Positions 1 to 40,305 of a DNA stretch of 64,000 nucleotides are shown in pieces. The notes below the pieces were generated by a model that ran no database searches, was not told the origin of the DNA, and saw only the letters and a program-made list of their open reading frames with translations. The first letter of the stretch is position 1. The number at the start of each line of letters is the position of its first letter. The stretch covers positions 444 through 64,443 of the forward strand of contig CBCPND010000018.1 in NCBI GenBank assembly GCA_965120395.1. Reading direction: 5' to 3'. This stretch comes from an uncultured Helicobacter sp. (lineage in GTDB: Bacteria; Campylobacterota; Campylobacteria; Campylobacterales; Helicobacteraceae). The translations under genes were made by a program, and so were the position numbers.

Positions 1-23
1 GAAAACCCAAATCTAAAAAAGGG

Positions 24-377
24 TTAAATTTTTTTGTTAGAGAAAAACTTATCCATAACCGCTTGCATTGCATCGCTTTTAGTTATGATTTGGATTTGAT
101 TTTGTAGTTGTGCGATGAGTTTATCCTTTTCAGCAAGCATTTGGTGATAGCTTTTGTCCTTTTCAGCGAGGCTTTCTCTTTTTTCAGCAAGCAGCAAATT
201 ATAATCTTTTTGCTTTTGTGCCATAACGCTATCAAAGATTTTGCGCGCTTGTTTAGTTTTCTTGAAATCAAGAACTAAACAAAGCAAATAACCAGCAATC
301 ACACCAAGAAAAAGCCCGACGAAAAAATCTACACTACCACTTGTTATCAACTCTAGCAATGATTTTGCATTTTGCAT
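24..377 (-). CDS. Phage-island bitopic membrane protein with C-terminal coiled coil (paralog of 5342..5611)
   Basis: Trimmed to the internal ATG (MQNAKSLL...) with AAGGAC upstream. One TM segment (FFVGLFLGVIAGYLLCLVL) followed by LAEK-repeat coiled coil. Same architecture and end motifs as 5342..5611. Confidence 0.5.
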   Translation of the reverse strand: MQNAKSLLELITSGSVDFFVGLFLGVIAGYLLCLVLDFKKTKQARKIFDSVMAQKQKDYNLLLAEKRESLAEKDKSYHQMLAEKDKLIAQLQNQIQIITKSDAMQAVMDKFFSNKKI

Positions 378-591
378 TTTGCAGTCCTTTTGGAAATTTT
401 TTAAAATAATATCTAAACACAAAAAACAAAAAAGGGTTAAAACCCGCGCGGGTAAAATAAAGCTATAAGCCCTATACAACGATAATTTTAACTTTAACAA
501 GCAAGGCAAAAAGCCTTAAAAATCTTTTAACCCTTTTTTTTAGTTTTTGATTTTTGTAAAGTTTCGCGAAATTTAACACAAGGAGTCGCAA

Positions 592-951
592 ATGGCATCC
601 CAAAAAGTAAAAAATGTATCATATTTAGCAGTGGCTACACTTGATTTTAGCGATGGAGAGCTTAACAAAAGCGCGGTGTTAATCCCACCTTATGCAGAAG
701 TTATCCACATTAGCACAGAGGTGACTAACGCAGGAAGCGGAAGCCTTGATTTAGGATTTGAAGGAGATAGCCAAGCCGTAGCAAATGGCATCGATTTGAG
801 CGCTCTTTCTACAAATATATCTAATAGTGTTTTCACAAGTGCAAGCGCACAAGAGCTTATCGCCACAGCAAGCGCGACAAGCGATGCAGTAGTTAAAGTG
901 CGTGTGCAGTATTTCTTGCCAAGTGAAATTAGCATCGAATGCCACTACTAA
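592..951 (+). CDS. Hypothetical phage protein (first gene of capsid block)
   Basis: AAGGAG RBS 6 nt upstream. 119 aa, Ser/Ala-rich. Sits directly upstream of the scaffold-like and capsid-like genes. Confidence 0.45.
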   Translation: MASQKVKNVSYLAVATLDFSDGELNKSAVLIPPYAEVIHISTEVTNAGSGSLDLGFEGDSQAVANGIDLSALSTNISNSVFTSASAQELIATASATSDAVVKVRVQYFLPSEISIECHY

Positions 952-962
952 AAGGATTTAGG

Positions 963-1541
963 ATGAACGAGGAACTACAAGGCGCGCCCCAAGAGTCGCA
1001 AGCGCAACCAAAGCCTAGAACCAGAGATGACATTCTAAATGATTTGAAAAGCGGGATAATTTCAATCCAAGAGGGACTAGCTAAAGAGCTAGCCGAAATG
1101 GTAGAAAACAATCCAGAGTTAGAGGATTTATTCTTTGAGGACAAAGAAGCGTTTTTTAAGAAAATCATTGAGTTTCAAGACAAGGTAGTCAATGAACGCA
1201 TCGTCGATAGACAAAACGAGCTAGAGGAATACGACAAAAACGCGCAATTTGAATCAGGCTTACAAGCTTTAGAACAAGCTAAAAAAGCCTTTCAAGAAGC
1301 GCATCCCGATGTCAATGCAGATGAGCTTATGCAGTTTTATCTAACCTTGCCACAAGATGTGCAAGCGCAGCTTGATTCTTTAGCGCCAGATGCGCTATTT
1401 GAAAAGCTATTTGAATTACATCAAGCACAAGGAGGCGCACAGCAAGGACAACAAGATCAGCTACCAAAACAATTAAATGGTATGCCAAGCGATGCGAGCG
1501 AGCTAGAGCCAGAGCTCGACTTGCCAACCACACGATATTAA
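963..1541 (+). CDS. Putative capsid scaffolding protein (acidic, helical)
   Basis: Start moved to ATG 963 (MNEELQ..) to remove the overlap. Very acidic, Q/E/L-rich protein immediately upstream of the capsid-like gene. The call rests on position and composition only. Confidence 0.4.
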   Translation: MNEELQGAPQESQAQPKPRTRDDILNDLKSGIISIQEGLAKELAEMVENNPELEDLFFEDKEAFFKKIIEFQDKVVNERIVDRQNELEEYDKNAQFESGLQALEQAKKAFQEAHPDVNADELMQFYLTLPQDVQAQLDSLAPDALFEKLFELHQAQGGAQQGQQDQLPKQLNGMPSDASELEPELDLPTTRY

Positions 1542-1562
1542 ATTTAACATAAGGAGTAAAAA

Positions 1563-2747
1563 ATGGCAATCAATTGGAATAACATAAGCTACGATAGCTT
1601 AACAAACGACCCAAACATCGCGGTGAAAATCGCACAAGAAATCGAACGCACAAGTTGGCTAAAAAGCCCTTTTGCAAGTTTCGTAGGTAAAGGCGGAGAT
1701 AGAGGCGTAAGGCATTACGATGTCAATATTTGCCAACCATACAGACCAAGACTTAAAAATAAGCTAACAGGTGATGGTGTAGATGGCAATACAGATTTAG
1801 ATGCTAACTACGATAATTTGGAGATTCTCAATCAAACCATTTATCCACGCGTAGTGGCTAATGCTTTAAGAAGCGAGATTAAGCAGTATTCTACAATGAA
1901 AGGCATTAATTTCGCTAAAGAGGCAAGCGATTCTTTAAGCGAGTGGATCCAAGATAAGCGCGATAGGGAATTAGTCGCGGCATTATCTAATGATTTCACA
2001 AATGCAGTCGTTGCAAGCAACACTACAGGCACAGGCTATGCAGATACTACGAGCGCGGATTCTATCGCGGATGTTACTAAACAAATCGAAAAAGGCGATG
2101 TATGTAATGTCGCATTATTAAGGCGAGCTATTTTTATGGCAAGGACTGGTTTAAGGTATGACGGCACAAGTGCCTATCCGATTAAGCCTATCAAATCAGA
2201 CCTTGTAACACAAAATGGTGTAAGCTACATGCACAATTCTTACATCATCTTGCTAGATAGCTATCAAGCTAACCAGCTAAAATCAGATGAGGAATGGAAA
2301 GATATCCAAAAATATGCAGGGGCAAGAGGTGATGAAAACCACCTTTTCACAGGGCTTTTAGGCATGATTGATGGATGTCCAGTGCTAGACATGAACATTT
2401 GGAGTGTGATGCAAGTGGGTATGCTAAATTCTAACATTAGCGATGCGGACTTCAAAAAGAACATCCACGCACAAAACCACACTACACTAACACCGCCAAG
2501 CTACTACACAGGCGATAATCCAGTGTCAATCGGGGCTTTAATTGGTGCGAGTGCTTTAGTAATGGTCGGCACAGATAAACCACAATTCTACTTTAACGAC
2601 AAAGAGGACATGGGACGAAAGATTGCGTGCGGTGTGGATAGAATCTTATCTATTTCTAAAGGTAGATTTGCATTAGAAAGCGGAGCTTTAAGCGTATTTT
2701 CTAATCAAGATTTTGCCACAATCGGGATTTTCACAAGCTGTGAATAA
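1563..2747 (+). CDS. Putative major capsid protein
   Basis: 394 aa with AAGGAG RBS. Follows the scaffold-like gene and is followed by a perfect 10-bp hairpin. Size and composition are typical of HK97-fold major capsid proteins. Not verified by search. Confidence 0.5.
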   Translation: MAINWNNISYDSLTNDPNIAVKIAQEIERTSWLKSPFASFVGKGGDRGVRHYDVNICQPYRPRLKNKLTGDGVDGNTDLDANYDNLEILNQTIYPRVVANALRSEIKQYSTMKGINFAKEASDSLSEWIQDKRDRELVAALSNDFTNAVVASNTTGTGYADTTSADSIADVTKQIEKGDVCNVALLRRAIFMARTGLRYDGTSAYPIKPIKSDLVTQNGVSYMHNSYIILLDSYQANQLKSDEEWKDIQKYAGARGDENHLFTGLLGMIDGCPVLDMNIWSVMQVGMLNSNISDADFKKNIHAQNHTTLTPPSYYTGDNPVSIGALIGASALVMVGTDKPQFYFNDKEDMGRKIACGVDRILSISKGRFALESGALSVFSNQDFATIGIFTSCE

Positions 2748-2749
2748 GG

Positions 2750-2776
2750 GCTTTTAAGCTTTAAAGGCTTAAAAGC
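2750..2776 (+). terminator. Perfect 10-bp hairpin just after the capsid-like gene (attenuator/terminator candidate)
   Basis: GCTTTTAAGC (2750-2759), 7-nt loop, GCTTAAAAGC (2767-2776). Begins 3 nt after the stop codon. No following T-run. Confidence 0.35.
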
Positions 2777-2796
2777 GCAACTTAAAAGGATAAGCT

Positions 2797-3438
2797 ATGC
2801 TAATCTATGAAAAAGTCGCAGAAATTGATAGCCTTTTAGCACAAATCCAAAGTGAAAAGCAAGCAGGCATCACAGAGATGAAAGCCGAGCTTGAAAGCGC
2901 GCTAAATGATTATCAGACAACCACAAGCGAGGCGATAGATTCTAAAATCTCACAATCGCAAGAAAACCTAAAAAGCGATTATGAGAATTCTTTAGCAGAG
3001 TCCATTACAAGCCTTAAAAGTGAAAATGCAGAGATAATCAATCAAACGCTAACAGATATCGCAAGTGTAGCTAAAGAGGAAGTCAAAAGTGAGATTTTAG
3101 AGAATAAGGATTCTATACAAGGCGAGCTTTTGGAATCACTAAATAAGACGCTGCCAATGGAGCTTTTAGCCAATGCTTGCTTTAATGCTAAAGTTTTAGC
3201 GGGCATTGAAGGGACGATAGAATCCCAGATGACCACCGATAAGGCTAAACGCGTTTTCAAAGAAGCACTAAAAGAGGATGTGTTAGTTAAGGATTATTAT
3301 GAGTCGTTTTTGCGCTTGCAGAGTTTAAAGATTTTTGGCACGCACGAGCTTATACAAGGCATTATCCAAGCCATAAGCAAGCCCGAGCCAGAACCAGAAC
3401 CGCCACAACAAGCACAAAACATCCTTATAGCAAGGTAG
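2797..3438 (+). CDS. Hypothetical phage coiled-coil protein
   Basis: 213 aa with AAGGA RBS. Heptad-like E/S/L-rich sequence and a C-terminal PEPEPEPP tract. Confidence 0.45.
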   Translation: MLIYEKVAEIDSLLAQIQSEKQAGITEMKAELESALNDYQTTTSEAIDSKISQSQENLKSDYENSLAESITSLKSENAEIINQTLTDIASVAKEEVKSEILENKDSIQGELLESLNKTLPMELLANACFNAKVLAGIEGTIESQMTTDKAKRVFKEALKEDVLVKDYYESFLRLQSLKIFGTHELIQGIIQAISKPEPEPEPPQQAQNILIAR

Positions 3439-3442
3439 CTTA

Positions 3443-4291
3443 ATGAATAATGCAGAATTTGATACAAGGCTAAATCTAGTATGCAAAACGCTTTTTAAAA
3501 GCGGTTTTTTAGAAAACGCAGATAATCGGAACAACTTCACAGGCAGTGATTTAGCACAAATCCAAGTGGGATTAGCACAAATCGCGGTTAATGCAGTGCT
3601 AGCAATGGAGAAAACCGATTTAGAGCGCGAGGCCATGAATGTATCAAATGCTAAAATGCAAAGTGAATTAGAGCTAACCATTAACCGCGCTAAAATCGAA
3701 AACATCAAAATTATGGCAGAAGCAATCGCCCAAGCCATACAAGCAGAATCAATTAAGCGCAGCGTAACCGATAATGCTACGATTAACAAAACAAATGCCT
3801 ATGTTAGCTTTTTCAATGTCGCAATGAATGCCATTGCTAATAATAGCGCGAGTTTAGAGGATGGCACGATGTTATCTAGCATAAGCACATTGGTGATGAA
3901 TTGCATCGAGACAATTAACACCGAGGCTTTAGGTAGCAATTTTGATGATTTACTCACAATGCTAACCACAAACGCACAAAAGCTAGATAACATCGGAGAT
4001 GGCACAAGGAAAGTCCAAATTATCGCGCCTAAAAATGTTATTATGCGTGGTGAGCCGCTAACCTTAATCGGATTAAGCACTTATGGCAATAATGCGTGCG
4101 AATTTGTCGATGGCGAGAATACCATCTCTAGCAGATTTTATACATTTAGCGAGCCCAGCGAGTGCAAGAAAGAAATCACCTTTAGAGTCAAAAACAACGA
4201 GGATGAATGGGTAAGCGATACCATCCACATTGTCGTAACGCGCTTTAAGTATAAGAAAAAAAACAAGGAGATTGTAATCGATGCAAAATGA
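3443..4291 (+). CDS. Hypothetical phage virion-module protein
   Basis: 282 aa, 4 nt after the preceding stop. The C-terminal ~90 aa look like a beta-sandwich domain, judged from alternating hydrophobic pattern only. Confidence 0.45.
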   Translation: MNNAEFDTRLNLVCKTLFKSGFLENADNRNNFTGSDLAQIQVGLAQIAVNAVLAMEKTDLEREAMNVSNAKMQSELELTINRAKIENIKIMAEAIAQAIQAESIKRSVTDNATINKTNAYVSFFNVAMNAIANNSASLEDGTMLSSISTLVMNCIETINTEALGSNFDDLLTMLTTNAQKLDNIGDGTRKVQIIAPKNVIMRGEPLTLIGLSTYGNNACEFVDGENTISSRFYTFSEPSECKKEITFRVKNNEDEWVSDTIHIVVTRFKYKKKNKEIVIDAK

Positions 4292-5336
4292 ACAAGAATT
4301 TGAGGATTTAGAATACACCGAAAAAGACTTAATCTTAAGCGAGGAAGCCACACCAGAAGCTAAATCTAAAGCTTTAGCGCGGGCAAATCAAGTAGCACGA
4401 GCATCAGGACAACCCGAGCTTATGGCAGATTATCAAGAGGATTTAGAGCAGCAAGGAATTTTTGACGCGCTAAATAACTCGGTGATTAAGGATTCTAAAG
4501 GCTTAAGCGATGAACTTAATAACCAAATTGATGAAATCGATGGCATAAGCGAGGATAGCGAGGGCACACCTTATGGCTATCAAATGCCACAAAGCGATAC
4601 TTACGAGACTACACGCTATGAAAGGTATAGGAATACAGGCGTGGCTTATTTTGATAAGAAAAAAGATTTAAGCTTGCTTGATGCGTATTTAGCTAAAAAG
4701 TTAGGTTTAGATGTTAAGTGGAATTATCACAAAATCGATATGAAAGGTGATTTTTCAATCAAAAACCGCAATCAAGGCGCAGCAATTGAAAACATGATGA
4801 ATAGCGTTAAGCAAGCACAAAACCTATATTCTATGGTGATCCCCTTGATGGTGAACAAAGATACTAAAGAGAACATCCAAAGTGCAATCAAAAAAGGCGC
4901 ATTTAAAGCGGTCGGCGGAATGGTAGATTTTGATGTAACAGATCCAAATATGCGAAAGACAGCATTAACCGAAATCATAGCAGGTGTAATGACAAGCGCG
5001 GGGGGCAGAAGCGGTCGCATTACAGATGAAGTGCGCAGAAATGCAGCAGAATATGTTAAAGGCGCATTTGATAACAAAAATTACTACGATGTTGCGCGGG
5101 TTATGGGTGATTTAGCGTTGAATGCTATTGAATCAAATTATCAAAGAGCACTTATGAGCGGGTTTGATGATAACACTTTAGCACTAATGCATCGCGATGT
5201 TGTTAATGCTAGAAAGGTTGTAGATTCTATCAAAAACAGCAATCGTGAGGATTTTGCTAAAAATCCAGTTAAAACATTTGCAGTGCTTGATACATTCTTA
5301 CGCGGGAACAGAATCCCAACAGATCGCATAAGGTAA
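4281..5336 (+). CDS. Hypothetical phage protein
   Basis: 351 aa with AAGGAG RBS. Overlaps the preceding gene by 11 nt, consistent with translational coupling. Confidence 0.45.
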   Translation: MQNEQEFEDLEYTEKDLILSEEATPEAKSKALARANQVARASGQPELMADYQEDLEQQGIFDALNNSVIKDSKGLSDELNNQIDEIDGISEDSEGTPYGYQMPQSDTYETTRYERYRNTGVAYFDKKKDLSLLDAYLAKKLGLDVKWNYHKIDMKGDFSIKNRNQGAAIENMMNSVKQAQNLYSMVIPLMVNKDTKENIQSAIKKGAFKAVGGMVDFDVTDPNMRKTALTEIIAGVMTSAGGRSGRITDEVRRNAAEYVKGAFDNKNYYDVARVMGDLALNAIESNYQRALMSGFDDNTLALMHRDVVNARKVVDSIKNSNREDFAKNPVKTFAVLDTFLRGNRIPTDRIR

Positions 5337-5341
5337 AAGCT

Positions 5342-5611
5342 TTAAGGTTTTTTGTTGAGCTTTTCAACAAAAGGCTTAAAAAGTGCTTGCGTGCCTATTT
5401 GTTGTCGTAATTCTTGAATCTTGGCATCTTTTTCTTTTATAATCAAATCAAAATTTTTTCTTGATTCTTTTAAACTTTCTCTAATTTCTTTTGTTGCCTT
5501 GAACCAAAATCTACCTACAAGAAAACAGCACAAAGTAGCTACAATCACACCAAAACCAAAACCAGCCACAAAAGCAGAAGCATTTTCAAGATGAAAGTGA
5601 ATTTCGCTCAT
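5342..5611 (-). CDS. Phage-island bitopic membrane protein with coiled coil (paralog of 24..377)
   Basis: 89 aa. TM segment FVAGFGFGVIVATLCCFLV, then KEKDAKIQELRQQI (compare AEKDKLIAQLQNQI in 24..377). AAGGG RBS. Antisense to the flanking structural blocks. Confidence 0.5.
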   Translation of the reverse strand: MSEIHFHLENASAFVAGFGFGVIVATLCCFLVGRFWFKATKEIRESLKESRKNFDLIIKEKDAKIQELRQQIGTQALFKPFVEKLNKKP

Positions 5612-5683
5612 TTTTAACCCTTTTTTAAATTTGAAATTTTCACAATAATACCAAAATCCAAAAATTAAAAAAGGGGATAAAAA

Positions 5684-5770
5684 ATGTATTTTACATTAGG
5701 TTTTATCGCTGGTGTAAGTTTAGTTTGTGTTATCTTTTTTTGTATGCTAAAAAGGGATTTGCGCGATTAA
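5684..5770 (+). CDS. Candidate micro-ORF: 28-aa hydrophobic peptide MYFTLGFIAGVSLVCVIFFCMLKRDLRD
   Basis: Below the ORF-track cutoff. GGGGA RBS 7 nt upstream of the ATG. One TM-length hydrophobic stretch plus a charged tail. Confidence 0.25.
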   Translation: MYFTLGFIAGVSLVCVIFFCMLKRDLRD

Positions 5771-5807
5771 ACGCACTTGCAAATCAATCAAAAACAAGGA
5801 GTAAAAA

Positions 5808-6191
5808 ATGGGCGACATTCTTACCTCATTAGGAAACATCGGGTTAGGAATCCTAAACGCATTTAATGCATCAAAATCGCTAAAACTTCAAGAGGAGAGT
5901 TTAGCGGAAACCAAAGCACAAAACGCTTACGAGCGTCAGAAGTATGAAAACGCACTTGCCAATCAACAAGAGGGCATAAGCGCGTTAGGAAGTGTGTTTA
6001 GCAGTGCTTTAGAAAAAAGCCAAAGCACGGATTCTAGCACAGAATCTAGCACGGATTCTACAAGTGGCTTAACAGGAAGCACAGATGCAAGCGCAAGCGT
6101 AGATGGAAGCGCAAGCGCAGCGGATGCAACGACAAGCAAGGCAGCAAGCGAAGGCACAAGCGATGCTAGCGTGCCAACACAAAGAGATTAA
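5808..6191 (+). CDS. Hypothetical phage protein with Ser/Thr/Asp-rich repetitive C-terminus
   Basis: AAGGAG RBS. N-terminal glycine-zipper-like hydrophobic segment. Contains a 12-bp tandem repeat x3 (6024-6059) encoding STDS/STES/STDS. Confidence 0.4.
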   Translation: MGDILTSLGNIGLGILNAFNASKSLKLQEESLAETKAQNAYERQKYENALANQQEGISALGSVFSSALEKSQSTDSSTESSTDSTSGLTGSTDASASVDGSASAADATTSKAASEGTSDASVPTQRD

Positions 6192-6264
6192 CAATCGAGA
6201 TAAGTCTAGAATTAGAAAAAGAGCTAGCGCAAAAATGCAAAAGGCTAGTTTTTGGAGTTGAAAG

Positions 6265-6699
6265 ATGAGAGAAGTAATCAATGATAGCGAGGAAGCTATC
6301 ACACTAAAGCTAAAAAACAGCTATGGTAAAACCATAGCCACTTATAAGATAGAAAGTCAAGAGAGTATAAGCTTGCCATTATTTAGCGAGGATGAAAGGC
6401 TTATGAATGATAATAAGCAAGTGTTTATCTATGCAGGAAGCGGAGAGCTAAACATAAGCGAATGCTATACGAAGTATGTTTTTAGCGACATCGATGTTAA
6501 GGATTTAGATTACTACCTGCAACACCAAAAAACCCCGCTAAAAGCTAAAGCTAAAGAGCAGTTGCAAGCTTTCATCGAGCTTATGGAATCTAACCTCAAT
6601 CTAGGATACGATAAAATTAAGCCACCGCTATACGAAAAACTAGAGAGGGATTTATTATTTTATCGCAACGAGGATTTAGACTTTAGGTTTGTGTTTTAG
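6265..6699 (+). CDS. Hypothetical phage protein
   Basis: 144 aa with GGAG RBS upstream. No recognisable motif. Confidence 0.4.
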   Translation: MREVINDSEEAITLKLKNSYGKTIATYKIESQESISLPLFSEDERLMNDNKQVFIYAGSGELNISECYTKYVFSDIDVKDLDYYLQHQKTPLKAKAKEQLQAFIELMESNLNLGYDKIKPPLYEKLERDLLFYRNEDLDFRFVF

Positions 6700-6776
6700 A
6701 TTTGCTTTTGTGAAAAAAGCAAGCTAACCACAAAGGCAATAAGAGCAAAGATTAGAATTTGGATTAAGATACTCAT
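6696..6776 (-). CDS. Candidate micro-ORF: 26-aa hydrophobic peptide MSILIQILIFALIAFVVSLLFSQKQI
   Basis: Below the ORF-track cutoff. GGGGA upstream of the ATG. Caveat: it overlaps an 8-bp hairpin (6702-6722) that could instead be a terminator for 6265..6699. Confidence 0.2.
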   Translation of the reverse strand: MSILIQILIFALIAFVVSLLFSQKQI

Positions 6777-6870
6777 TTTACACATCCCCGCGAGAATCCC
6801 GCTTTAAAAATTTTAACCCTTTAAAAAATTTGGCATTTATAGAATAATAGCACACAAAAAAGGCAAAATA

Positions 6871-7470
6871 ATGAACACAGCCAAAAAAGTGATAAATCTT
6901 ATCCGAAGCATAGCTAGAGATGATGATTATAAGAAGCTATTTTTTAGCGATAGCGAGTTATTAGAAAAGTTAAGCTTATCACAAAACGAACTCATTTCAG
7001 AGTTTAAAGAAAACATCCACTACCTAAAAATAAAGCTAAAAGGCAGCACAGAGCTAGAATTACCAGCTAAAATTGCCTACATTATCAAGCTAGAGTTAGA
7101 TGGCAAGCCACTAACCTATACGAGTGCTACCACAGGATTAAAGCTAAAAGAGCCTTGCTTTTTTTACTTGCGAGGCTACACCTATATGCTTTACAATGTT
7201 AGCAAAGGCGAGGAGCTAGAGATAATGGCAAGCTTTTTTAGCAAAGAGCTAAAAAGTCCTAATGATAGCCTTGCTTTAAGCGCAGAATTTAATAAGGCTT
7301 TAGCTTTAAGGGTCGTATTGGATACGCTTTTAGTGGAGAGAAGCAGCGCGGATTTGCAACCACGAATGCAGATATTGCGCAGTGAATACGAGTTAGCTAA
7401 AAGCAAAATAAGAAGCTTAAAAAACATAGCTAACACGCCAAACATAACCTATACTAAACATCACATCTAA
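6871..7470 (+). CDS. Hypothetical phage protein (immediately upstream of portal-like gene)
   Basis: 199 aa. First gene of the third + strand block, downstream of a TTTTAACCCTTT box. Confidence 0.45.
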   Translation: MNTAKKVINLIRSIARDDDYKKLFFSDSELLEKLSLSQNELISEFKENIHYLKIKLKGSTELELPAKIAYIIKLELDGKPLTYTSATTGLKLKEPCFFYLRGYTYMLYNVSKGEELEIMASFFSKELKSPNDSLALSAEFNKALALRVVLDTLLVERSSADLQPRMQILRSEYELAKSKIRSLKNIANTPNITYTKHHI

Positions 7471-7480
7471 AGGATAGCAA

Positions 7481-9403
7481 ATGTTAGAATTATCAGAATT
7501 GCAAGCAATGCTAGAGATAGACTCAATGAGTGCAGATAGTGCTTTAAGAGAGTATAAGGACTCTAAAGCGTATTATCACGGACACCAAATCGACCCCGCT
7601 ACTCTTGGGATCATACAAGCGCGCGGGCAAGTGCCAGTGTATGAAAACATCTTTAAAATGATTTGTGATAAGATTCTAGGTTACAAAATCCAAAGCAGCA
7701 CAGAGATAAAAGTTTATGGCAGGCAAGAAGAGGATAAGGCTTTAGCGAATTTGTTATGCGATTTACTCAAGGTGTTTAATCAACAAAACAATTATGAAAA
7801 AGAAATCTATAAGCGGGATTTTGATTTGCTGATGGGATTAAGCGTTGTAGAGTTATGGATAGAGCAAGACACACATAATGATAAGCACATCACACTAAAG
7901 CACATACCTACTGACTGCTTTATGATCGATGCGTATTCTATCGACAAAAACGCCATTGATGCTACGCGCTTTCACAAAAAACAAAACATTAACTACTACG
8001 AAGCAAGGGCAATAATCGGAGAGGAGAAAGAAATCTATGTTAGCAAGGAAGATATAGCCGACAAGCGCGCTTTTATTATAGAATCTTGGATTAAAGAGCC
8101 ACACGAAAAGCTAGGTTTTTCTTGGAATCGCTATCTATGGCATAGCAATGGCGGAATCTACAAATACGAAGTCGCACCCTTTAAAAACGGCGCGCATCCT
8201 TTTGTAATCGCAAAATACAATATCGATGAAAAAAATAATTGGTATGGATTATTTCGCGACATTAAGCCGATACAAGATGAAATTAATTTTAGCGAGATAA
8301 AGACGGGTAATTTGCTAGGAAGCGTAAAAGCGCTTTATGAAAGTGATGCAGTGGATGATGTCGATAGTTTCGCGGATAACATAGGGAAAGGCAATGCTTT
8401 AATACAAGTGCGAAGCGGAGCATTAAAAGAGGGCAAGATAGAATTTATCCAACATCAAGCAGACATTAGCGCACTAACTCAAAGAGCAGACATTAAGCGC
8501 ACGCTAGCAAAAGTAATAAGCGGGCTTAACGAGGAAGCATTAGGACAAGCGGTTAATCGACAAAGTGGCGTAGCGATAGCCCAAAGGCGAGAACTTGGCT
8601 TGCTTGGCTTGCAGTATTATGTCAAAAGCGCGGATGACATGGATAGGCTTTTGTATGAAAAAGTGCTAGATTTCATCCAGCACTACTACACAAAAGAACA
8701 AGTTTTTAGAATCACAGATAAAAAGACAGGTGAAAGATACTTTAAAATCAACACAGACGAAAACAACGCGATTAAAATCGGTTGCTTTGATTTGGTGTAT
8801 AAAACACAGCTTAAAACGCAAGGTCGAGAGGAAAGGTTTGCACATTGGGCAGAGATTCTAAAGACTATCGGAAGCGTGCGAGGCGATATTTTGCCACAAT
8901 TGCTACCATTGATGCTAAAAGATACAGATAGCCCGATAATCGAGGATATCGAGGAAGTGCTAGCAAATGCAGAGGCACAAGCACAAGAAGCACAACAAGC
9001 ACAAGCACCTATGCAGCAAAAAATGCAAGAACTAGAAATGGCTAAAATGCAAAGCCAGATAGCTAAACTTAATGCAGAAGTCGCAAAACTAACATCACAA
9101 GCTGAAATGCTTGCTAAATCTACAGAGCTTATACAAGAACAAAGCGCGGATTCTAACACCAGCGCGGATGGCTTGGAGAGAAGCGATTCTAACCGCACTT
9201 CTAGCGCGCAGAGCCAAAACACACAAAAAGAGCAAAACCGCGCGACCCAAAATCAAGAGCCAAGCACAAGCGCGCAAGAAGCCAAAAGAGCAGAGCCAAA
9301 AACAAGCAACAACAATGGCTTACCGGGCAAAGAAAAAACAGGCATAGAAATACCCAACATCGTAAGACAAAAAATGCAAATATCTAAAAATGATATGCGT
9401 TAA
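7481..9403 (+). CDS. Putative portal protein with long helical / low-complexity C-terminal extension
   Basis: 640 aa, the largest ORF in the island. The central region resembles portal cores (..IKPIQDEINFSE.., recognised by eye). The last ~150 aa are Q/A/E-rich coiled coil followed by an S/T/N/Q-rich tail. Confidence 0.5.
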   Translation: MLELSELQAMLEIDSMSADSALREYKDSKAYYHGHQIDPATLGIIQARGQVPVYENIFKMICDKILGYKIQSSTEIKVYGRQEEDKALANLLCDLLKVFNQQNNYEKEIYKRDFDLLMGLSVVELWIEQDTHNDKHITLKHIPTDCFMIDAYSIDKNAIDATRFHKKQNINYYEARAIIGEEKEIYVSKEDIADKRAFIIESWIKEPHEKLGFSWNRYLWHSNGGIYKYEVAPFKNGAHPFVIAKYNIDEKNNWYGLFRDIKPIQDEINFSEIKTGNLLGSVKALYESDAVDDVDSFADNIGKGNALIQVRSGALKEGKIEFIQHQADISALTQRADIKRTLAKVISGLNEEALGQAVNRQSGVAIAQRRELGLLGLQYYVKSADDMDRLLYEKVLDFIQHYYTKEQVFRITDKKTGERYFKINTDENNAIKIGCFDLVYKTQLKTQGREERFAHWAEILKTIGSVRGDILPQLLPLMLKDTDSPIIEDIEEVLANAEAQAQEAQQAQAPMQQKMQELEMAKMQSQIAKLNAEVAKLTSQAEMLAKSTELIQEQSADSNTSADGLERSDSNRTSSAQSQNTQKEQNRATQNQEPSTSAQEAKRAEPKTSNNNGLPGKEKTGIEIPNIVRQKMQISKNDMR

Positions 9404-9406
9404 AGA

Positions 9407-9619
9407 ATGAAAAAGAAACTGAAACTAGAAAAAGCCATCAAAATCTTGCTTGGCACACAAAATGCACGCGTGGTAAGGTTTATCACACACGACACGACAT
9501 TAAACTTGAAAATCAAGCGCGAGAATGAGCACTTAAAAGTTATCGTGTTAGATGAAAAAGGATTTGTTTTAGATGAATTTAGCTTAAGCACTTTTAGTTT
9601 GAATCTTATAGCGATTTGA
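9407..9619 (+). CDS. Hypothetical small phage protein
   Basis: 70 aa, starting 3 nt after the portal-like stop. Last ORF before the non-coding junction. Confidence 0.35.
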   Translation: MKKKLKLEKAIKILLGTQNARVVRFITHDTTLNLKIKRENEHLKVIVLDEKGFVLDEFSLSTFSLNLIAI

Positions 9620-9692
9620 TGTCGCGCAGTGGCTTAAAGCGAACAAGTGATACATTTAGCGCGCAGTTAATAAGCTTTAGATATAATAAGGT

Positions 9693-9770
9693 ATGAAAAA
9701 ACCTATAGTAACGATATTTGCAGGTTTGCCTTGTTTTGCGTGCATTGCGTGGATTGCGTGCATTGAGTAA
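9693..9770 (+). CDS. Candidate micro-ORF: 25-aa Cys-rich hydrophobic peptide MKKPIVTIFAGLPCFACIAWIACIE
   Basis: TATAAT at 9683-9688 and AAGG just before the ATG. The 9-bp tandem repeat 9736-9762 lies inside it. Confidence 0.2.
   Translation: MKKPIVTIFAGLPCFACIAWIACIE
9736..9770. repeat. 9-bp tandem repeat TTGCGTG(C/G)A x3 plus a partial copy
   Basis: TTGCGTGCA TTGCGTGGA TTGCGTGCA TTGAGTAA, read directly from the sequence. Confidence 0.8.
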
Positions 9771-9820
9771 GTTTTGCTTTGGCAACTTGGAATCTCATTT
9801 AGCTTGCTTTAGATTCTAAT

Positions 9821-10024
9821 CGCGCGCTACATTTTGAATGCACTTTAGTTTTTATCGTGCTTGTTTGATAAGCTACATTGAAAAATCTACACTTCACACC
9901 ACTTCACACCCAAGCGCGCCCACATTTTAAAAAGTCTATTTAAGCCATTTCTACCTTTTTAACCCGCGCGCCACATTGAAAAGCTATACTTTATCGACCA
10001 AAAAACCGCGCCCACATTTAAAGG
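9821..10024 (+). repeat. Five direct iteron-like repeats (GC-rich)-C(T/C)ACATT(T/G)-A-rich
   Basis: Cores CTACATT at 9827 and 9873, and CCACATT at 9920, 9971 and 10012. Start-to-start spacing is 46/47/51/41 bp. Three copies are preceded by GCGCGC-type runs. Confidence 0.7.
9891..9910. repeat. Exact 10-bp tandem duplication ACTTCACACC x2
   Basis: Read directly from the sequence. Confidence 0.9.
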
Positions 10025-10271
10025 CAAGCGATTTTAGGGATTTAAAAAAGCTTTTAAATAAATTTGCTTGCCTTTTTTTAATGGCAAAATTGCAGCGCGG
10101 TTTTGGAATTTGAAAAAAAGAAAGGCAAAATGCAAAAAGTGCAAATTGGTTTTGCTTGGATTTGGCTTTATGGCTTGGTTAGAAAAATTTACGCGGGCTT
10201 TAAATATCGTAGCACGCGAGGTTTAGCGCGGATTTGATTAAGGCTTGATTTCAAAAATTTAGCGCATACTC

Positions 10272-10301
10272 TTGACAAAAGCAGGGCAAAAAAGGTATAG
10301 T
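10272..10301 (+). promoter_or_regulatory. Near-consensus sigma70-type promoter TTGACA-N18-TATAGT
   Basis: TTGACA at 10272-10277 and TATAGT at 10296-10301. No ORF begins within about 200 nt downstream. Confidence 0.35.
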
Positions 10302-10360
10302 TTTTTTGCTTTTTTGGAAGCGTGTTATTTGAAATTGTGTCTTGTAGTGTGTCTAAAAGC

Positions 10361-10390
10361 TTGAAATTTGGCAGTTTTGGCACTTATAAT
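10361..10390 (+). promoter_or_regulatory. Near-consensus promoter TTGAAA-N18-TATAAT (candidate yejB promoter, ~120-nt leader)
   Basis: TTGAAA at 10361-10366 and TATAAT at 10385-10390. Confidence 0.4.
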
Positions 10391-10515
10391 GCAAAAAAAG
10401 GCACAAAAAAATATCGATAATCATTAGGTTAAGAAATTAGGAACTTAACGCTACTTCATAGGATTTTAGCCATAATCCAAACCACCTATTAGAATTCTAG
10501 ATTCTATAAAATTGG

Positions 10516-11568
10516 ATGAAAATGACCTTTTATTTCCTTAAGCGCATTTTGTTGATAATTCCCACACTTCTAGGCATCATCACGCTTAATTTTTTCATCA
10601 TCCAGTTAGCTCCCGGCGGTCCAGTAGAGCACATCACAAGCAAACTCGAGCAAGGCACACATAGCGAAGCAAGCAGTGGCACTAAAATAAGCGATTATAA
10701 AGCTTCAAAAGGACTTGATGTAGAACTCATAGAGGAGCTTAAAAGACAATATGGCTTTGATAAAAGCATAACTGAGCGCTACATTTTAATGCTTAAAAAT
10801 TACCTTACCTTTGAGCTTGGCGAGAGTTATTATCGAAAGATTAGCGTGTGGGATTTGATTTTAGAGAAGATGCCTGTTTCTATTTCTTTGGGGCTTTTTA
10901 GCACATTGCTCATTTATCTTATCTCAATTCCGCTTGGAATCTATAAAGCGCAGAAAAATGGCAGCACGCTAGATTCTATATCTTCGCTTATTATTGTTGT
11001 GCTAAATGCCATTCCGGCGTTTTTGTTTGGGATTTTGCTTATTGTGCTTTTCGCGGGTGGAATCTATTTGGATATTTTTCCATTGCGAGGATTAACAAGT
11101 GATGACTTCGCGCAAATGGGCTATTTTGATAAGATTAAGGATTATCTCTGGCACATTACTTTACCGGTGTTGTGCTTATCTATAGGTGGCTTTGCCACGC
11201 TCACATTACTAAGTAAAAATTCTTTTTTAGAAGAAATGCACAAAGGCTATGTCTTAACTGCCTATGCAAAAGGCGCGAGCAATCAGCGCGTGCTTTATGG
11301 GCATATTTTTAGAAATGCAATGTTGCTTGTGATCTCTTCATTTCCTGCGGCGTTTTTAGGGATTTTCTTAAGTGGAAGCTTGATGATTGAGATTATTTTT
11401 AGCTTGGATGGTTTGGGGCTTTTGGGGTATCAGAGTATTTTAGATCGCGATTATCCAGTCGTCTTTGGCACGCTTTATATTTTTACGCTTTTTAGCCTAA
11501 TTATTGCTGTGGTAAATGATTTTGTTTATACACTAGTTGATCCTAGAATAAATTTTGAAGCGCAGTAA
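10516..11568 (+). CDS. yejB: Peptide/opine-family ABC transporter permease, YejB-like
   Basis: Near-collinear similarity by eye to E. coli YejB (..LAPGGPV.., ..YGFDK.., ..DYLWHITLPVL.., ..FRNAMLLVI.., ..DYPVVFGTLYIFTL.., ..LVDPRI.F). ATG 10522 is an alternative start. Confidence 0.85.
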   Translation: MKMTFYFLKRILLIIPTLLGIITLNFFIIQLAPGGPVEHITSKLEQGTHSEASSGTKISDYKASKGLDVELIEELKRQYGFDKSITERYILMLKNYLTFELGESYYRKISVWDLILEKMPVSISLGLFSTLLIYLISIPLGIYKAQKNGSTLDSISSLIIVVLNAIPAFLFGILLIVLFAGGIYLDIFPLRGLTSDDFAQMGYFDKIKDYLWHITLPVLCLSIGGFATLTLLSKNSFLEEMHKGYVLTAYAKGASNQRVLYGHIFRNAMLLVISSFPAAFLGIFLSGSLMIEIIFSLDGLGLLGYQSILDRDYPVVFGTLYIFTLFSLIIAVVNDFVYTLVDPRINFEAQ

Positions 11569-39946: not shown

Positions 39947-40305
39947 TGGTGGAGTCGTGGGGAATTGAACCCCAGTCCAAAATCTATCTCCGAATCATAG
40001 GAATCTACATGCTTTCTGAAGGTTATCATTTCTTGTCATTGGGTAGTCCTTCAATCCCCAATGCAAAAAGCCGTATCTTTCTTTGGATTCTGGCGCAATC
40101 CAAAGGCAACTAGTTTAGTGACGATTTATGCGATGCACTAGTATCACCACACAATCGGCTCCGAAGAGAAGTTAAACCTACGCTACTCTTGCGTAAGCTG
40201 GAGCGTAATTTGCGCTGTTTGCGTTTATTTTTAATGGTAGTTTAACGGCATACCAGCCGACATGCACCTATGGGCAACAAATCCTGTCGAAGCCAAATCG
40301 ACCCC
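39947..40305 (-). ncRNA. ssrA: tmRNA (SsrA); predicted tag ANSANYAPAYARVA
   Basis: 5' GGGGTCGATTTGGCTTCGACAGG and 3' GGGGTTCAATTCCCCACGACTCCACCA form an acceptor stem with G3:U. Internal frame: GCA AAC AGC GCA AAT TAC GCT CCA GCT TAC GCA AGA GTA GCG TAG. Confidence 0.93.

What the first reader, a model, noticed from the sequence alone, without database searches (positions are those of the whole stretch)
9620..10515. 0.9 kb non-coding phage/chromosome junction packed with iteron-like repeats
This gap is unusually long for such a compact genome and contains several repeat types. There are five direct repeats with core C(T/C)ACATT followed by an A-rich tail, at 9827, 9873, 9920, 9971 and 10012 (spacing 41-51 bp). 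Three of them are preceded by GCGCGC-type runs that stand out in AT-rich DNA. A related word, ACATTTAGCGCGC, lies at 9652-9664 with its GC run downstream of the ACATT core rather than upstream. There is a 9-bp tandem repeat x3 (9736-9762) and an exact 10-bp tandem duplication (9891-9910). Arrays of direct repeats at 4-5 helical-turn spacing are typical of replication origins (iterons), packaging (pac/cos) regions bound by small terminase, and recombinase arm-type sites next to an att core. Any of these would fit the end of a prophage.
Basis: partly seen in the sequence, partly recalled or inferred. Interest (0 to 1): 0.65.

Follow-up and report, generated by a model that had tools for sequence, protein, structure and literature searches.

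The report
Phage attachment-site arm at prophage end
The 0.9-kb gap is one arm of a temperate Helicobacter phage's attachment region, most likely carrying binding sites for the phage integrase, joined to a stretch of older phage-derived DNA in front of a host transporter gene; it is an ordinary kind of feature in a phage group where it had not been described.

Summary
Four or five C(C/T)ACATT repeats, a 9-bp x3.3 tandem and a 10-bp x2 tandem lie where stated.

The gap has two parts.
- 9620-10008 is phage-only DNA. It holds a deletion remnant of a zeta-toxin gene and repeats 1-4.
- 10009-10515 is a modular stretch: hairpin A, promoters B and C, and a TAGAAT-N5-ATTCTA inverted repeat. An empty-site strain of the same species also has it in front of the same permease (L037). 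At least five other places in this genome carry copies.

In related phages the same motif array follows the portal or cargo genes. Inverted copies lie on the far side of the central region, next to a small ORF and a tyrosine integrase (L022, L031, L034/L035). This is the layout of integrase arm-type sites in an attP.

The prophage here is decayed. The zeta gene is deleted, and the only phage integrase copy in the genome is cut after about residue 90.

The exchange with the chromosome maps to 10365-10469. No binding was tested. The isolated N-terminal domain model found no known arm-binding fold. Read laying closed.

Verdict: a new member of a known kind, of modest interest.

The parts
7481..9403 (+). 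P22-type portal gene, the last structural gene of the prophage head module (context)
   Evidence: PF16510 E=1e-109 and phrog_156. Syntenic with Helicobacter prophages.
9407..9619 (+). orf70, a small cargo ORF that precedes the zeta-toxin gene in sibling phages; possibly the antitoxin (inference)
   Evidence: Present upstream of the Zeta_toxin gene in L026, L027 and L028. Absent together with zeta in L024. No family hit.
9693..9770 (+). Remnant of a zeta-toxin gene. The first 11 codons run to 9725, followed by the joint of a deletion of about 0.7 kb and out-of-frame tail sequence.
   Evidence: Runs X2-X4 and loci L026-L028, L023 and L031 carry a 186-196-aa PF06414 gene here. In X4, 711 extra letters lie between 9725 and 9734.
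9736..9765 (+). 9-bp tandem TTGCGTGCA x3.3 (x2.3 in siblings); function unknown, copy number varies
   Evidence: TRF; alignment A2.
9820..9839 (+). Arm-type site candidate 1 (TCGCGCGCTACATTTTGAAT)
   Evidence: Conserved in L026, weaker in L031.
9866..9885 (+). Weak, variable copy 2 (AAGCTACATTGAAAAATC)
   Evidence: CTACATT here and CCTACATT in L024, but CCTAATT in L026 and CCCAATT in L031.
9890..9910 (+). 10-bp tandem CACTTCACAC x2 between arm sites. Related tandems occur in L031 and in the C33 relic. Possibly an accessory-protein site (inference only).
9913..9932 (+). Arm-type site candidate 3 (AGCGCGCCCACATTTTAAAA)
9964..9983 (+). Arm-type site candidate 4 (CCGCGCGCCACATTGAAAAG); an island of conservation even against L023
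10005..10024 (+). Arm-type site candidate 5 (ACCGCGCCCACATTTAAAGG). It forms the first bases of module A and is the only copy also present in the empty-site strain and in the relics on C33 and C43.
10020..10079 (+). Module A: long hairpin followed by T7, a terminator-like element closing the rightward late/cargo transcripts
   Evidence: Folding energy -21.6 kcal/mol, z=-3.5, 0 of 200 shuffles fold as well. Also present at the C33 end (98%) and on C43.
10272..10301 (+). Module B promoter TTGACA-18-TATAGT, facing right. It is kept in every allele in front of the permease.
   Evidence: Matches 11 of 12 consensus positions. Conserved in C9, L026, L031, L037 and the diverged allele L036.
10361..10390 (+). 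Module C promoter TTGAAA-18-TATAAT, facing right. It overlaps a sigma-54-like TGGCAC-N5-ATGCA at 10378-10393.
   Evidence: Conserved in C9, C43 and L031. The sigma-54 reading is by eye only.
10365..10469 (.). Interval in which the phage-type sequence changes to the chromosomal type; it ends in GGATTTTAG (10461-10469)
   Evidence: The window equals phage L026 and differs from empty-site L037 at 10023-10063, 10182, 10248-9, 10270 and 10364. From 10470 it equals L037 and differs from the phage. The diverged allele reads GGATTTTAG-GATT-GGATTTTAG.
10490..10506 (.). Core-type candidate: inverted repeat TAGAAT-TCTAG-ATTCTA, 9 bp before the permease ATG
   Evidence: All module copies stay alike up to TAGAAT. 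The phage reads TAGAAT-CTAAT-ATTCTA. C50 and C6rc are identical to the phage through TAGAATCTAATA and are then host sequence.
10516..11568 (+). ABC-transporter permease (BPD_transp_1), the first host gene
   Evidence: PF00528 E=2e-33. The same protein, read from the second ATG (10522), is found in 19 contigs with three different left neighbours.

Best explanation
The gap is the left (P) arm of the attachment region of a temperate Helicobacter phage that has a P22-type portal. It is kept at the right end of an integrated and now decaying prophage.

Reading left to right it contains:
1. A cargo slot after the portal gene. Here it holds orf70 and the stump of a deleted zeta-toxin gene.
2. An array of four well-kept GCGCC(C)ACATT(T/G)(T/A)AA words plus one weak copy. 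These are most likely the arm-type sites bound by the N-terminal domain of the phage's tyrosine integrase.
3. A terminator-like hairpin.
4. Two rightward promoters.
5. A core-type inverted repeat, TAGAAT-N5-ATTCTA.

In the circular phage the matching inverted set of the motif lies 250-500 bp beyond the core, followed by a small Xis-like ORF and int. Integrase molecules bound to both arms would then bridge to the core.

In this genome the last ~0.5 kb (10009-10515) is also resident chromosomal DNA, itself a relic of an earlier phage arm. The phage sequence changes to chromosomal sequence within 10365-10469. That fits entry by recombination inside this shared module rather than at the palindromic core.

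Shown here: the layout, the conservation, the empty site and the decay.
Inferred: that integrase binds the repeats, that the palindrome is the core, and that the promoters read towards xis-int in the circular form.
For: 1. Layout in relatives.
- L022 (portal 77% identical): portal, then 5 direct CCACATT copies at 9052-9188, then a central B/C-like region, then 3 exact inverted copies at 10264-10405 plus two looser ones seen by eye, then integrase at 10566.
- L031 (attP form of a near-identical phage): zeta 3' end, direct copies at 798, 853 and 895, modules A-B-C-D, inverted copies at 1663 and 1848, a 92-aa ORF, then int.
- L034/L035 (same bird study): the core, 3 inverted copies at about 245-490, an 81-aa ORF, then int.

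2. The motif is kept while the spacers diverge (L023). In L024 the array follows the portal stop by about 8 nt, so the cargo varies and the array is constant.

3. No such cluster occurs elsewhere in 10-21 kb of phage DNA.

4. The integrase.
- It has a catalytic domain and a SAM-like core-binding domain starting at about residue 77.
- An extra N-terminal 60 residues are modelled as three strands plus a helix, with pLDDT 87-96. This is the topology described for arm-binding domains.
- Full-length lambda Int aligns over 359-371 columns, against 288-305 for constructs lacking the arm-binding domain.

5. Empty site. L037 joins the G000:C33 tail (99.4% identical) through A-B-C directly to the same permease. 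It has only copy 5 of the array.

6. The phage side is real phage DNA. Its depth is 10 times the host's in run X4 on one contig that runs from the portal through the array to 10093.

7. The join is a real molecule. The assembly is a k=87 de Bruijn graph and C18 is unbranched across the gap.
Against: - No binding data exist.
- The isolated N-terminal domain model retrieved no known arm-binding domain (best E=0.36). Pfam finds no Arm-DNA-bind family in this integrase.
- The arms lie 250-680 bp from the proposed core, far more than the 50-150 bp usual in studied attP sites.
- The window's phage/host change-over (10365-10469) is not at the proposed core. Its overlap (TCTAG) also differs from the phage's (CTAAT), so this particular junction does not look like a clean integrase product.
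- This genome has no intact phage integrase: only XerH-like C17 and a truncated copy on C36.
- The left junction of this prophage was not found. The lpxR|int junction (C36, L029, L033) lacks the P' arm and may belong to a second relic.
Confidence: 0.6

Rival explanations
1. The CCACATT words are bound by a different phage protein. Candidates are the 78-92-aa Xis-like ORF upstream of int, or a regulator of promoters B and C or of the late terminator. On this reading they are regulatory operators, not integrase arm sites.
For: The array lies just upstream of a terminator-like hairpin and two strong promoters. A small unannotated ORF always precedes int. The isolated N-terminal domain of Int gave no match to known arm-binding folds.
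Against: Asymmetric single words in direct arrays on one side and inverted arrays on the other side of a recombination region next to int are the typical arm-site layout. Recombination directionality factors usually bind one arm only (established knowledge of lambda Xis).
Confidence: 0.2
2. The repeats are iterons of the phage replication origin.
For: They are direct repeats at 41-51 bp spacing in AT-rich DNA. The phage can outnumber the host 10-fold.
Against: The HTH_36 initiator-like gene, the DnaB-like helicase and the primase lie 1.7-6 kb beyond int and have no motif cluster. In the prophage the array is separated from them by the whole element. A second, inverted set across the att core is not an iteron pattern.
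Confidence: 0.07
3. The repeats are a pac or small-terminase recognition region.
For: They lie next to the portal gene in the prophage map.
Against: No terminase gene is adjacent. The only possible large-terminase gene, judged by eye, lies after the replication and early genes in L029/L032, with no motif cluster near it. The array is next to int in the circular map.
Confidence: 0.03
4. The phage-permease join is an assembly artefact at a shared repeat, so the window shows no real junction.
For: The module is multi-copy, with one unitig of depth about 2400 in runs where the host is 120-320. Phage and host depths differ in all four runs. Other assemblies of the study end their phage contigs at the module.
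Against: Contig ends in this assembly overlap by exactly 87 nt, so contigs are unbranched paths, and C18 crosses the module without a break. The window's module carries private variants and a phage-type left part joined to the chromosomal D2 variant. A 51-nt unitig in X1 spans 10440-10490.
Confidence: 0.07

Closest known systems
Lambda attP (arm-type sites P1, P2 and P'1-P'3 around the COC' core), bound by the heterobivalent lambda integrase
   Same: An asymmetric 9-11-bp word is repeated on both sides of a recombination region in opposite orientation, next to a tyrosine integrase with an extra N-terminal domain. After integration one arm stays at each prophage end.
   Different: The arms here lie 250-680 bp from the proposed core, so the region spans about 1.2-1.4 kb against about 240 bp in lambda. 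A terminator-like hairpin and two promoters sit between arm and core. There is no sequence similarity to the lambda sites. Binding is untested.
Tn916/Tn1549-type integrases, with an N-terminal three-strand-plus-helix arm-binding domain
   Same: Tn1549 Int gives the best structural matches to the catalytic and core-binding part (E=2e-14). The N-terminal topology of three strands plus a helix agrees with the description in PMC8138268.
   Different: The crystallised Tn1549 constructs lack the arm-binding domain. The isolated N-domain model gave no significant match. The element here is a phage, not a conjugative transposon.
Helicobacter prophages and phages of the KHP30/1961P type and the H. cinaedi / H. 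canis prophage records (BK0700xx)
   Same: Homologous capsid and portal at 60-66% identity, the same capsid-before-portal order, and an integrase present.
   Different: No nucleotide match to the gap. In the H. canis record the portal is followed by other genes, not by this array. I found no description of att arms for this group in the papers searched.
'Grounded' prophages and att-site relics
   Same: The zeta gene is deleted, the only phage int copy is truncated, and phage-arm relics sit at several chromosomal places.
   Different: Here the relic module is kept in at least 6 copies and still carries near-consensus promoters.

Membership tests
attP/attR of a heterobivalent (arm-binding) tyrosine integrase | A tyrosine recombinase gene next to the site in the circular element | tested here: met
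   Met in relatives. PF00589 integrase lies 0.15-1.1 kb beyond the inverted motif set in L022, L031, L034 and L035. Not met in this genome, which has only a truncated copy on C36 and XerH-like C17.
attP/attR of a heterobivalent (arm-binding) tyrosine integrase | The integrase carries an N-terminal arm-binding domain in addition to the core-binding and catalytic domains | tested here: inconclusive
   About 60-75 extra N-terminal residues are modelled as three strands plus a helix with pLDDT 87-96. That matches the published topology, and full-length lambda Int aligns over 359-371 columns. However, there is no Pfam arm-domain hit and no significant fold match for the isolated domain.
attP/attR of a heterobivalent (arm-binding) tyrosine integrase | A repeated asymmetric word, different from the core, on both arms of attP | tested here: met
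   Direct sets of 3-5 copies and inverted sets of 2-3 exact copies (up to 5 by eye in L022) in L022, L031, and L026 combined with L034/L035. The word is absent as a cluster elsewhere.
attP/attR of a heterobivalent (arm-binding) tyrosine integrase | A core of inverted core-type sites around a short overlap that is identical in attP and attB, with junctions that break there | tested here: inconclusive
   TAGAAT-N5-ATTCTA is the last block shared by all copies. The C50 and C6 copies are identical to the phage up to TAGAATCTAATA. But the window's own change-over lies at 10365-10469, and its overlap differs from the phage's.
attP/attR of a heterobivalent (arm-binding) tyrosine integrase | Absence of the phage arm from the unoccupied site | tested here: met
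   L037 has the C33 tail, the module and the permease, with only copy 5. L036, L038, L039 and L040 have only a diverged B'-C'-D2.
attP/attR of a heterobivalent (arm-binding) tyrosine integrase | Demonstrated binding of integrase to the repeats and a requirement for them in recombination | not testable with these tools
   Needs gel-shift or footprinting and recombination assays.
Iteron-type replication origin | Repeats next to or inside the initiator gene, with an AT-rich unwinding region | tested here: not met
   The replication genes lie beyond int and carry no motif cluster.
pac/cos packaging site | Location in or beside the small-terminase gene; virion DNA ends map there | tested here: not met
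   No terminase gene is adjacent in any relative. Ends could not be mapped because only contigs were available and read laying closed.
Known structured RNA or tRNA-type att target | A match to an Rfam family or a tRNA/tmRNA gene at the site | tested here: not met
   No Rfam hit with E<0.1 in 8500-11500. No tRNA was found; the only tmRNA is at 39947.

The most novel reading that the evidence does not exclude
The ~0.5-kb A-B-C-D module is more than a scar. On this reading it is a portable phage-derived landing pad, kept in at least 6 copies per chromosome.
- It would let this phage family enter either through integrase at the TAGAAT-N5-ATTCTA core or by plain homologous recombination.
- Its two outward promoters would face xis-int only in the circular phage, giving an int switch that depends on circularisation.
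- After integration the same promoters would drive the neighbouring host gene, here the permease.
- The unusually distant arms (250-680 bp) would then be part of a long-range attP architecture not described before.
Probability: 0.2. Interest if true: 0.55.

Novelty: new member of a known kind. Interest (0 to 1): 0.3.

Why it matters
It gives a first working map of the attachment region for a group of non-pylori Helicobacter phages found in bird guts: the arm motif, the candidate core, the cargo slot and the integrase. That map makes prophage ends in fragmented Helicobacter assemblies easier to call.

It also shows that relics of phage arms can persist as multi-copy chromosomal modules carrying promoters, which confuses both assembly and annotation.

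It does not change what is known about how tyrosine integrases work.

Tried and rejected
- Rfam scan of 8500-11500: only two chance-level hits. No tRNA at the site.
- blastn of the gap against 50,697 phage records: no match.
- Module C pattern in IMG/VR and in GTDB representative genomes: no match.
- Portal search in IMG/VR: only 26-27% relatives.
- Species-level relatives from the genome search share only the permease start. Synteny is not kept, so they gave no empty site.
- H. cinaedi prophage L001 shares only the portal. The region after the H. canis portal has no similar repeats.
- I first read the lpxR|int junction (C36, L029, L033) as this prophage's left end. It starts inside the 3' end of the Xis-like ORF and lacks the P' arm, so it is either a secondary deletion or a separate relic.
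- I first read GGATTTTAG as the core. Comparing all copies moved the better core candidate to TAGAAT-N5-ATTCTA.
- The micro-ORF 10130-10237 and an ORF in module C are not kept in C9 or L031, so they are treated as non-coding.
- Copy-number arithmetic from unitig depths gave no consistent number of module copies.
- A 20-nt PWM built from the window copies missed the inverted copies because their tails differ. An 8-mer core word was used instead.
- The fold search of the isolated integrase N-domain gave nothing significant.
The planned depth and loose-end test at the int side could not be run.

Full report
**What is there.**
The window is G000:C18:444-64443 of a 1.54-Mb, 87-contig, 37% GC genome. 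Public runs holding it are bird-gut metagenomes.
- Left of the gap lies a Helicobacter-phage head module: major capsid at 1563-2747, P22-type portal at 7481-9403, and a 70-aa ORF at 9407-9619.
- Right of the gap lie an ABC permease (10516), an Mrp/NUBPL-type ATPase and a lactate permease.
- The 8-mer [GC]C[CT]ACATT occurs 0.19 times per kb in the genome. Five copies on one strand in 200 bp is far beyond chance, although the word was chosen after looking.

**The gap has two parts.**
A self-comparison of the genome shows that 10009-10469 is modular repeated DNA.
- Module A (10009-10093) begins with repeat 5 and holds a strong hairpin followed by a T-run.
- Module B carries the promoter TTGACA-18-TATAGT.
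- Module C carries the promoter TTGAAA-18-TATAAT and ends in ...TTCATAGGATTTTAG.
- Copies or parts lie at the end of C33, on C9 and C43, and at the ends of C50 and C6. All are in ordinary chromosomal surroundings: flagellar hook genes, rpsA-ispH-aroA, metK-ackA, xth-purH.

Contigs of four runs were laid on the window.
- The portal side has depth 417/237/369/1178 in X1-X4. The permease side has 323/190/218/119.
- In X4 one 4.1-kb contig of depth 1178 runs from the portal through the repeat array to 10093, so the array is phage DNA.
- The module itself is one unitig of depth about 2400-2500.
- In X4 the module continues with a different tail (GTGTTGC...), not with the permease.

**The zeta-toxin stump.**
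- Sibling phage contigs from the same study (L026, L027, L028) and L023, L031 carry a 186-196-aa Zeta_toxin gene between orf70 and the array.
- The window keeps only its promoter, ribosome-binding site and first 11 codons, up to 9725.
- The 25-aa ORF at 9693-9770 is therefore a deletion product, not a micro-protein gene.
- In L024 the array follows the portal stop by about 8 nt, with no orf70 or zeta. The cargo varies and the array is constant.

**What the array is.**
Relatives that keep the circular order show the layout.
- L022 (portal 77% identical): portal, then five direct CCACATT words at 9052-9188, a central region with B/C-like sequence, three exact inverted words at 10264-10405 plus two looser ones seen by eye, then a tyrosine integrase at 10566.
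- L031, a near-identical phage from another study: zeta 3' end, direct words at 798/853/895, A-B-C, a tail D, inverted words at 1663 and 1848, a 92-aa ORF, then int.
- L034 and L035, from the bird study: they start at ...AATCTAATATTCTATTTTGG and have three inverted words within the next 490 bp, then an 81-aa ORF and int.

Further points.
- Against the more distant L023, the words are islands of identity in spacers that cannot otherwise be aligned.
- No other cluster of the word occurs in the 10-21 kb of phage DNA examined.
- Direct words on one side, inverted words on the other, and an integrase gene beside them is the pattern of arm-type sites in an attP. This last statement rests on established knowledge of lambda and related systems.

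**The integrase.**
- It has a catalytic domain (residues 171-338) and a SAM-like core-binding domain from about residue 77.
- AlphaFold (27-sequence alignment, mean pLDDT 88.8) models residues 4-59 as three strands and a helix.
- That is the topology described for arm-binding domains (PMC8138268).
- The best fold matches are Tn1549 Int and lambda Int. Full-length lambda Int aligns over 359-371 columns, against 288-305 for constructs that start at residue 75.
- A separate model of residues 1-72 kept the same topology but found no significant match in the PDB (best E=0.36).
- This feature is therefore consistent with an arm-binding domain but not proven.

**Is the junction real, and where is it?**
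- Twenty-one pairs of contig ends share exactly 87 nt, so the assembly is a k=87 de Bruijn graph and each contig is an unbranched path.
- C18 crosses from phage to permease without a break, so that molecule existed in the source sample.
- A look-up of the permease protein, read from its second ATG, found 19 contigs with three kinds of left neighbour.
- L037 is the empty site. It consists of G000:C33 tail (99.4% over 1.4 kb), then A-B-C, then the same permease. It has no head module and carries only repeat 5 plus one relic word of the C33 tail.
- L036, L038, L039 and the X4 contig L040 carry a diverged B'-C' (76% identical), preceded in L036 by an Eco57I-like restriction island.
- So repeats 1-4 are phage-only, and 10009-10515 is resident DNA.
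- The C33 tail itself looks like an older phage arm. It has a CACTTCAC-type tandem, two CCACATT words, a 138-aa gene between them, and then module A.

A base-by-base comparison locates the exchange.
- The window's module equals the phage type (L026) wherever L037 differs, up to position 10364.
- From 10470 the window equals L037.
- The exchange therefore lies in 10365-10469.

**The core.**
- Lining up the right ends of all copies shows that they stay alike up to TAGAAT. A 5-6-nt spacer follows, and then ATTCTA in the phage, in the window (10490-10506) and on C9.
- C50 and C6rc are identical to the bird-study phage through TAGAATCTAATA and then become host sequence.
- This inverted repeat is the best candidate for the integrase core.
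- The window's own change-over lies to the left of it, and the spacer here (TCTAG) differs from the phage's (CTAAT).
- The simplest reading is that this prophage entered, or was later patched, by recombination within the shared 0.46-kb module. This is an inference.

**State of the prophage.**
- The only PF00589 hit in the genome is a XerH-like gene next to prfB on C17.
- C36 carries lpxR, a 107-bp spacer, and then an int gene cut after about residue 90 by a 1.93-kb deletion.
- In L029 and L033 the same lpxR junction has an intact int.
- That junction starts inside the 3' end of the Xis-like ORF and has no inverted words.
- It is therefore a secondary deletion or a separate relic. The true left end of the C18 prophage was not found.

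**Rivals.**
- A different phage protein could bind the words. This cannot be excluded without binding data.
- Iterons and pac are unlikely. The replication genes, and the only possible terminase gene, lie elsewhere and have no such words.
- An assembly artefact is unlikely, for the k=87 reason given above.

**Limits.**
- Only Logan contigs, not reads, were available for the runs.
- Depth figures are unitig means.
- The species has no name in the tools. Protein neighbours are labelled 'uncultured Helicobacter sp.'.

**Verdict.**
The finding is real and is explained as the P arm of a phage attachment region at a decaying prophage end. It is a new member of a known kind. The unusual details are arms far from the core and a multi-copy relic module carrying promoters.

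Noticed in passing
window 9407-9770; L026 10845-11724; L024 11920-12129: The slot between the portal and the arm array is polymorphic. Some variants have nothing (L024), some have orf70 plus a Zeta_toxin gene (L026, L027, L028, L023, L031), and the window has orf70 plus a deleted zeta. This looks like a toxin-antitoxin cargo cassette whose toxin has been lost here.
   Followed up: partly
G000:C36 22800-25647 (L030); L029 9894-13292: A second phage-derived junction: lpxR, a 107-bp spacer, then int. In this genome a 1.93-kb deletion removes Int residues 91-358, three small ORFs and the start of the HTH_36 replication protein, leaving the putative arm-binding domain fused to the rest. After C36:24255 the sequence no longer matches L029.
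   Followed up: partly
G000:C9 8820-9146; C43 2683-2940; C50 1-87; C6 36722-36808; C33 40740-41870: At least five further copies or parts of the A/B/C/D module lie in ordinary chromosomal places. Two of them (C50, C6) are 100% identical to the phage over the last 87 nt up to TAGAATCTAATA. They break the assembly.
   Followed up: partly
upstream of the permease: L036 1-5570, L037 1-1336, window 1-10008: The place in front of this permease is a variable hot spot. It holds a helicase plus Eco57I-like restriction island with a HicB-like stump in L036, the C33 tail in L037, and a prophage in the window.
   Followed up: partly
window 10378-10393: TGGCAC-N5-ATGCA, a good sigma-54-type match, overlaps the -10 box of promoter C. 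The GG and GC are kept in L023, where the -10 box is weakened (TACGAT). They are lost in C43 and L036. Judged by eye only.
   Followed up: no
window 10272-10515 and L036 5760-6000: Promoter B (TTGACA...TATAGT) is kept in every allele in front of the permease, including the 76%-identical one. It may be the working promoter of the permease, with a leader of about 210 nt.
   Followed up: no
whole genome (G000): Contig ends overlap by exactly 87 nt in 21 pairs, so the assembly graph can be partly rebuilt from the contigs. Contigs shorter than about 3 kb seem to have been dropped, which removes the repeat nodes.
   Followed up: partly
window 39947-40305 (-): tmRNA gene with tag peptide ANSANYAPAYARVA.
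   Followed up: no
many intergenic places, e.g. window 10490-10510, C33 40790-40960, L015 7240-7500: Words of the type TAGAATCTAGATTCTA (containing GANTC) are very common between genes in this genome and its relatives. This weakens any argument that rests on that palindrome alone.
   Followed up: no
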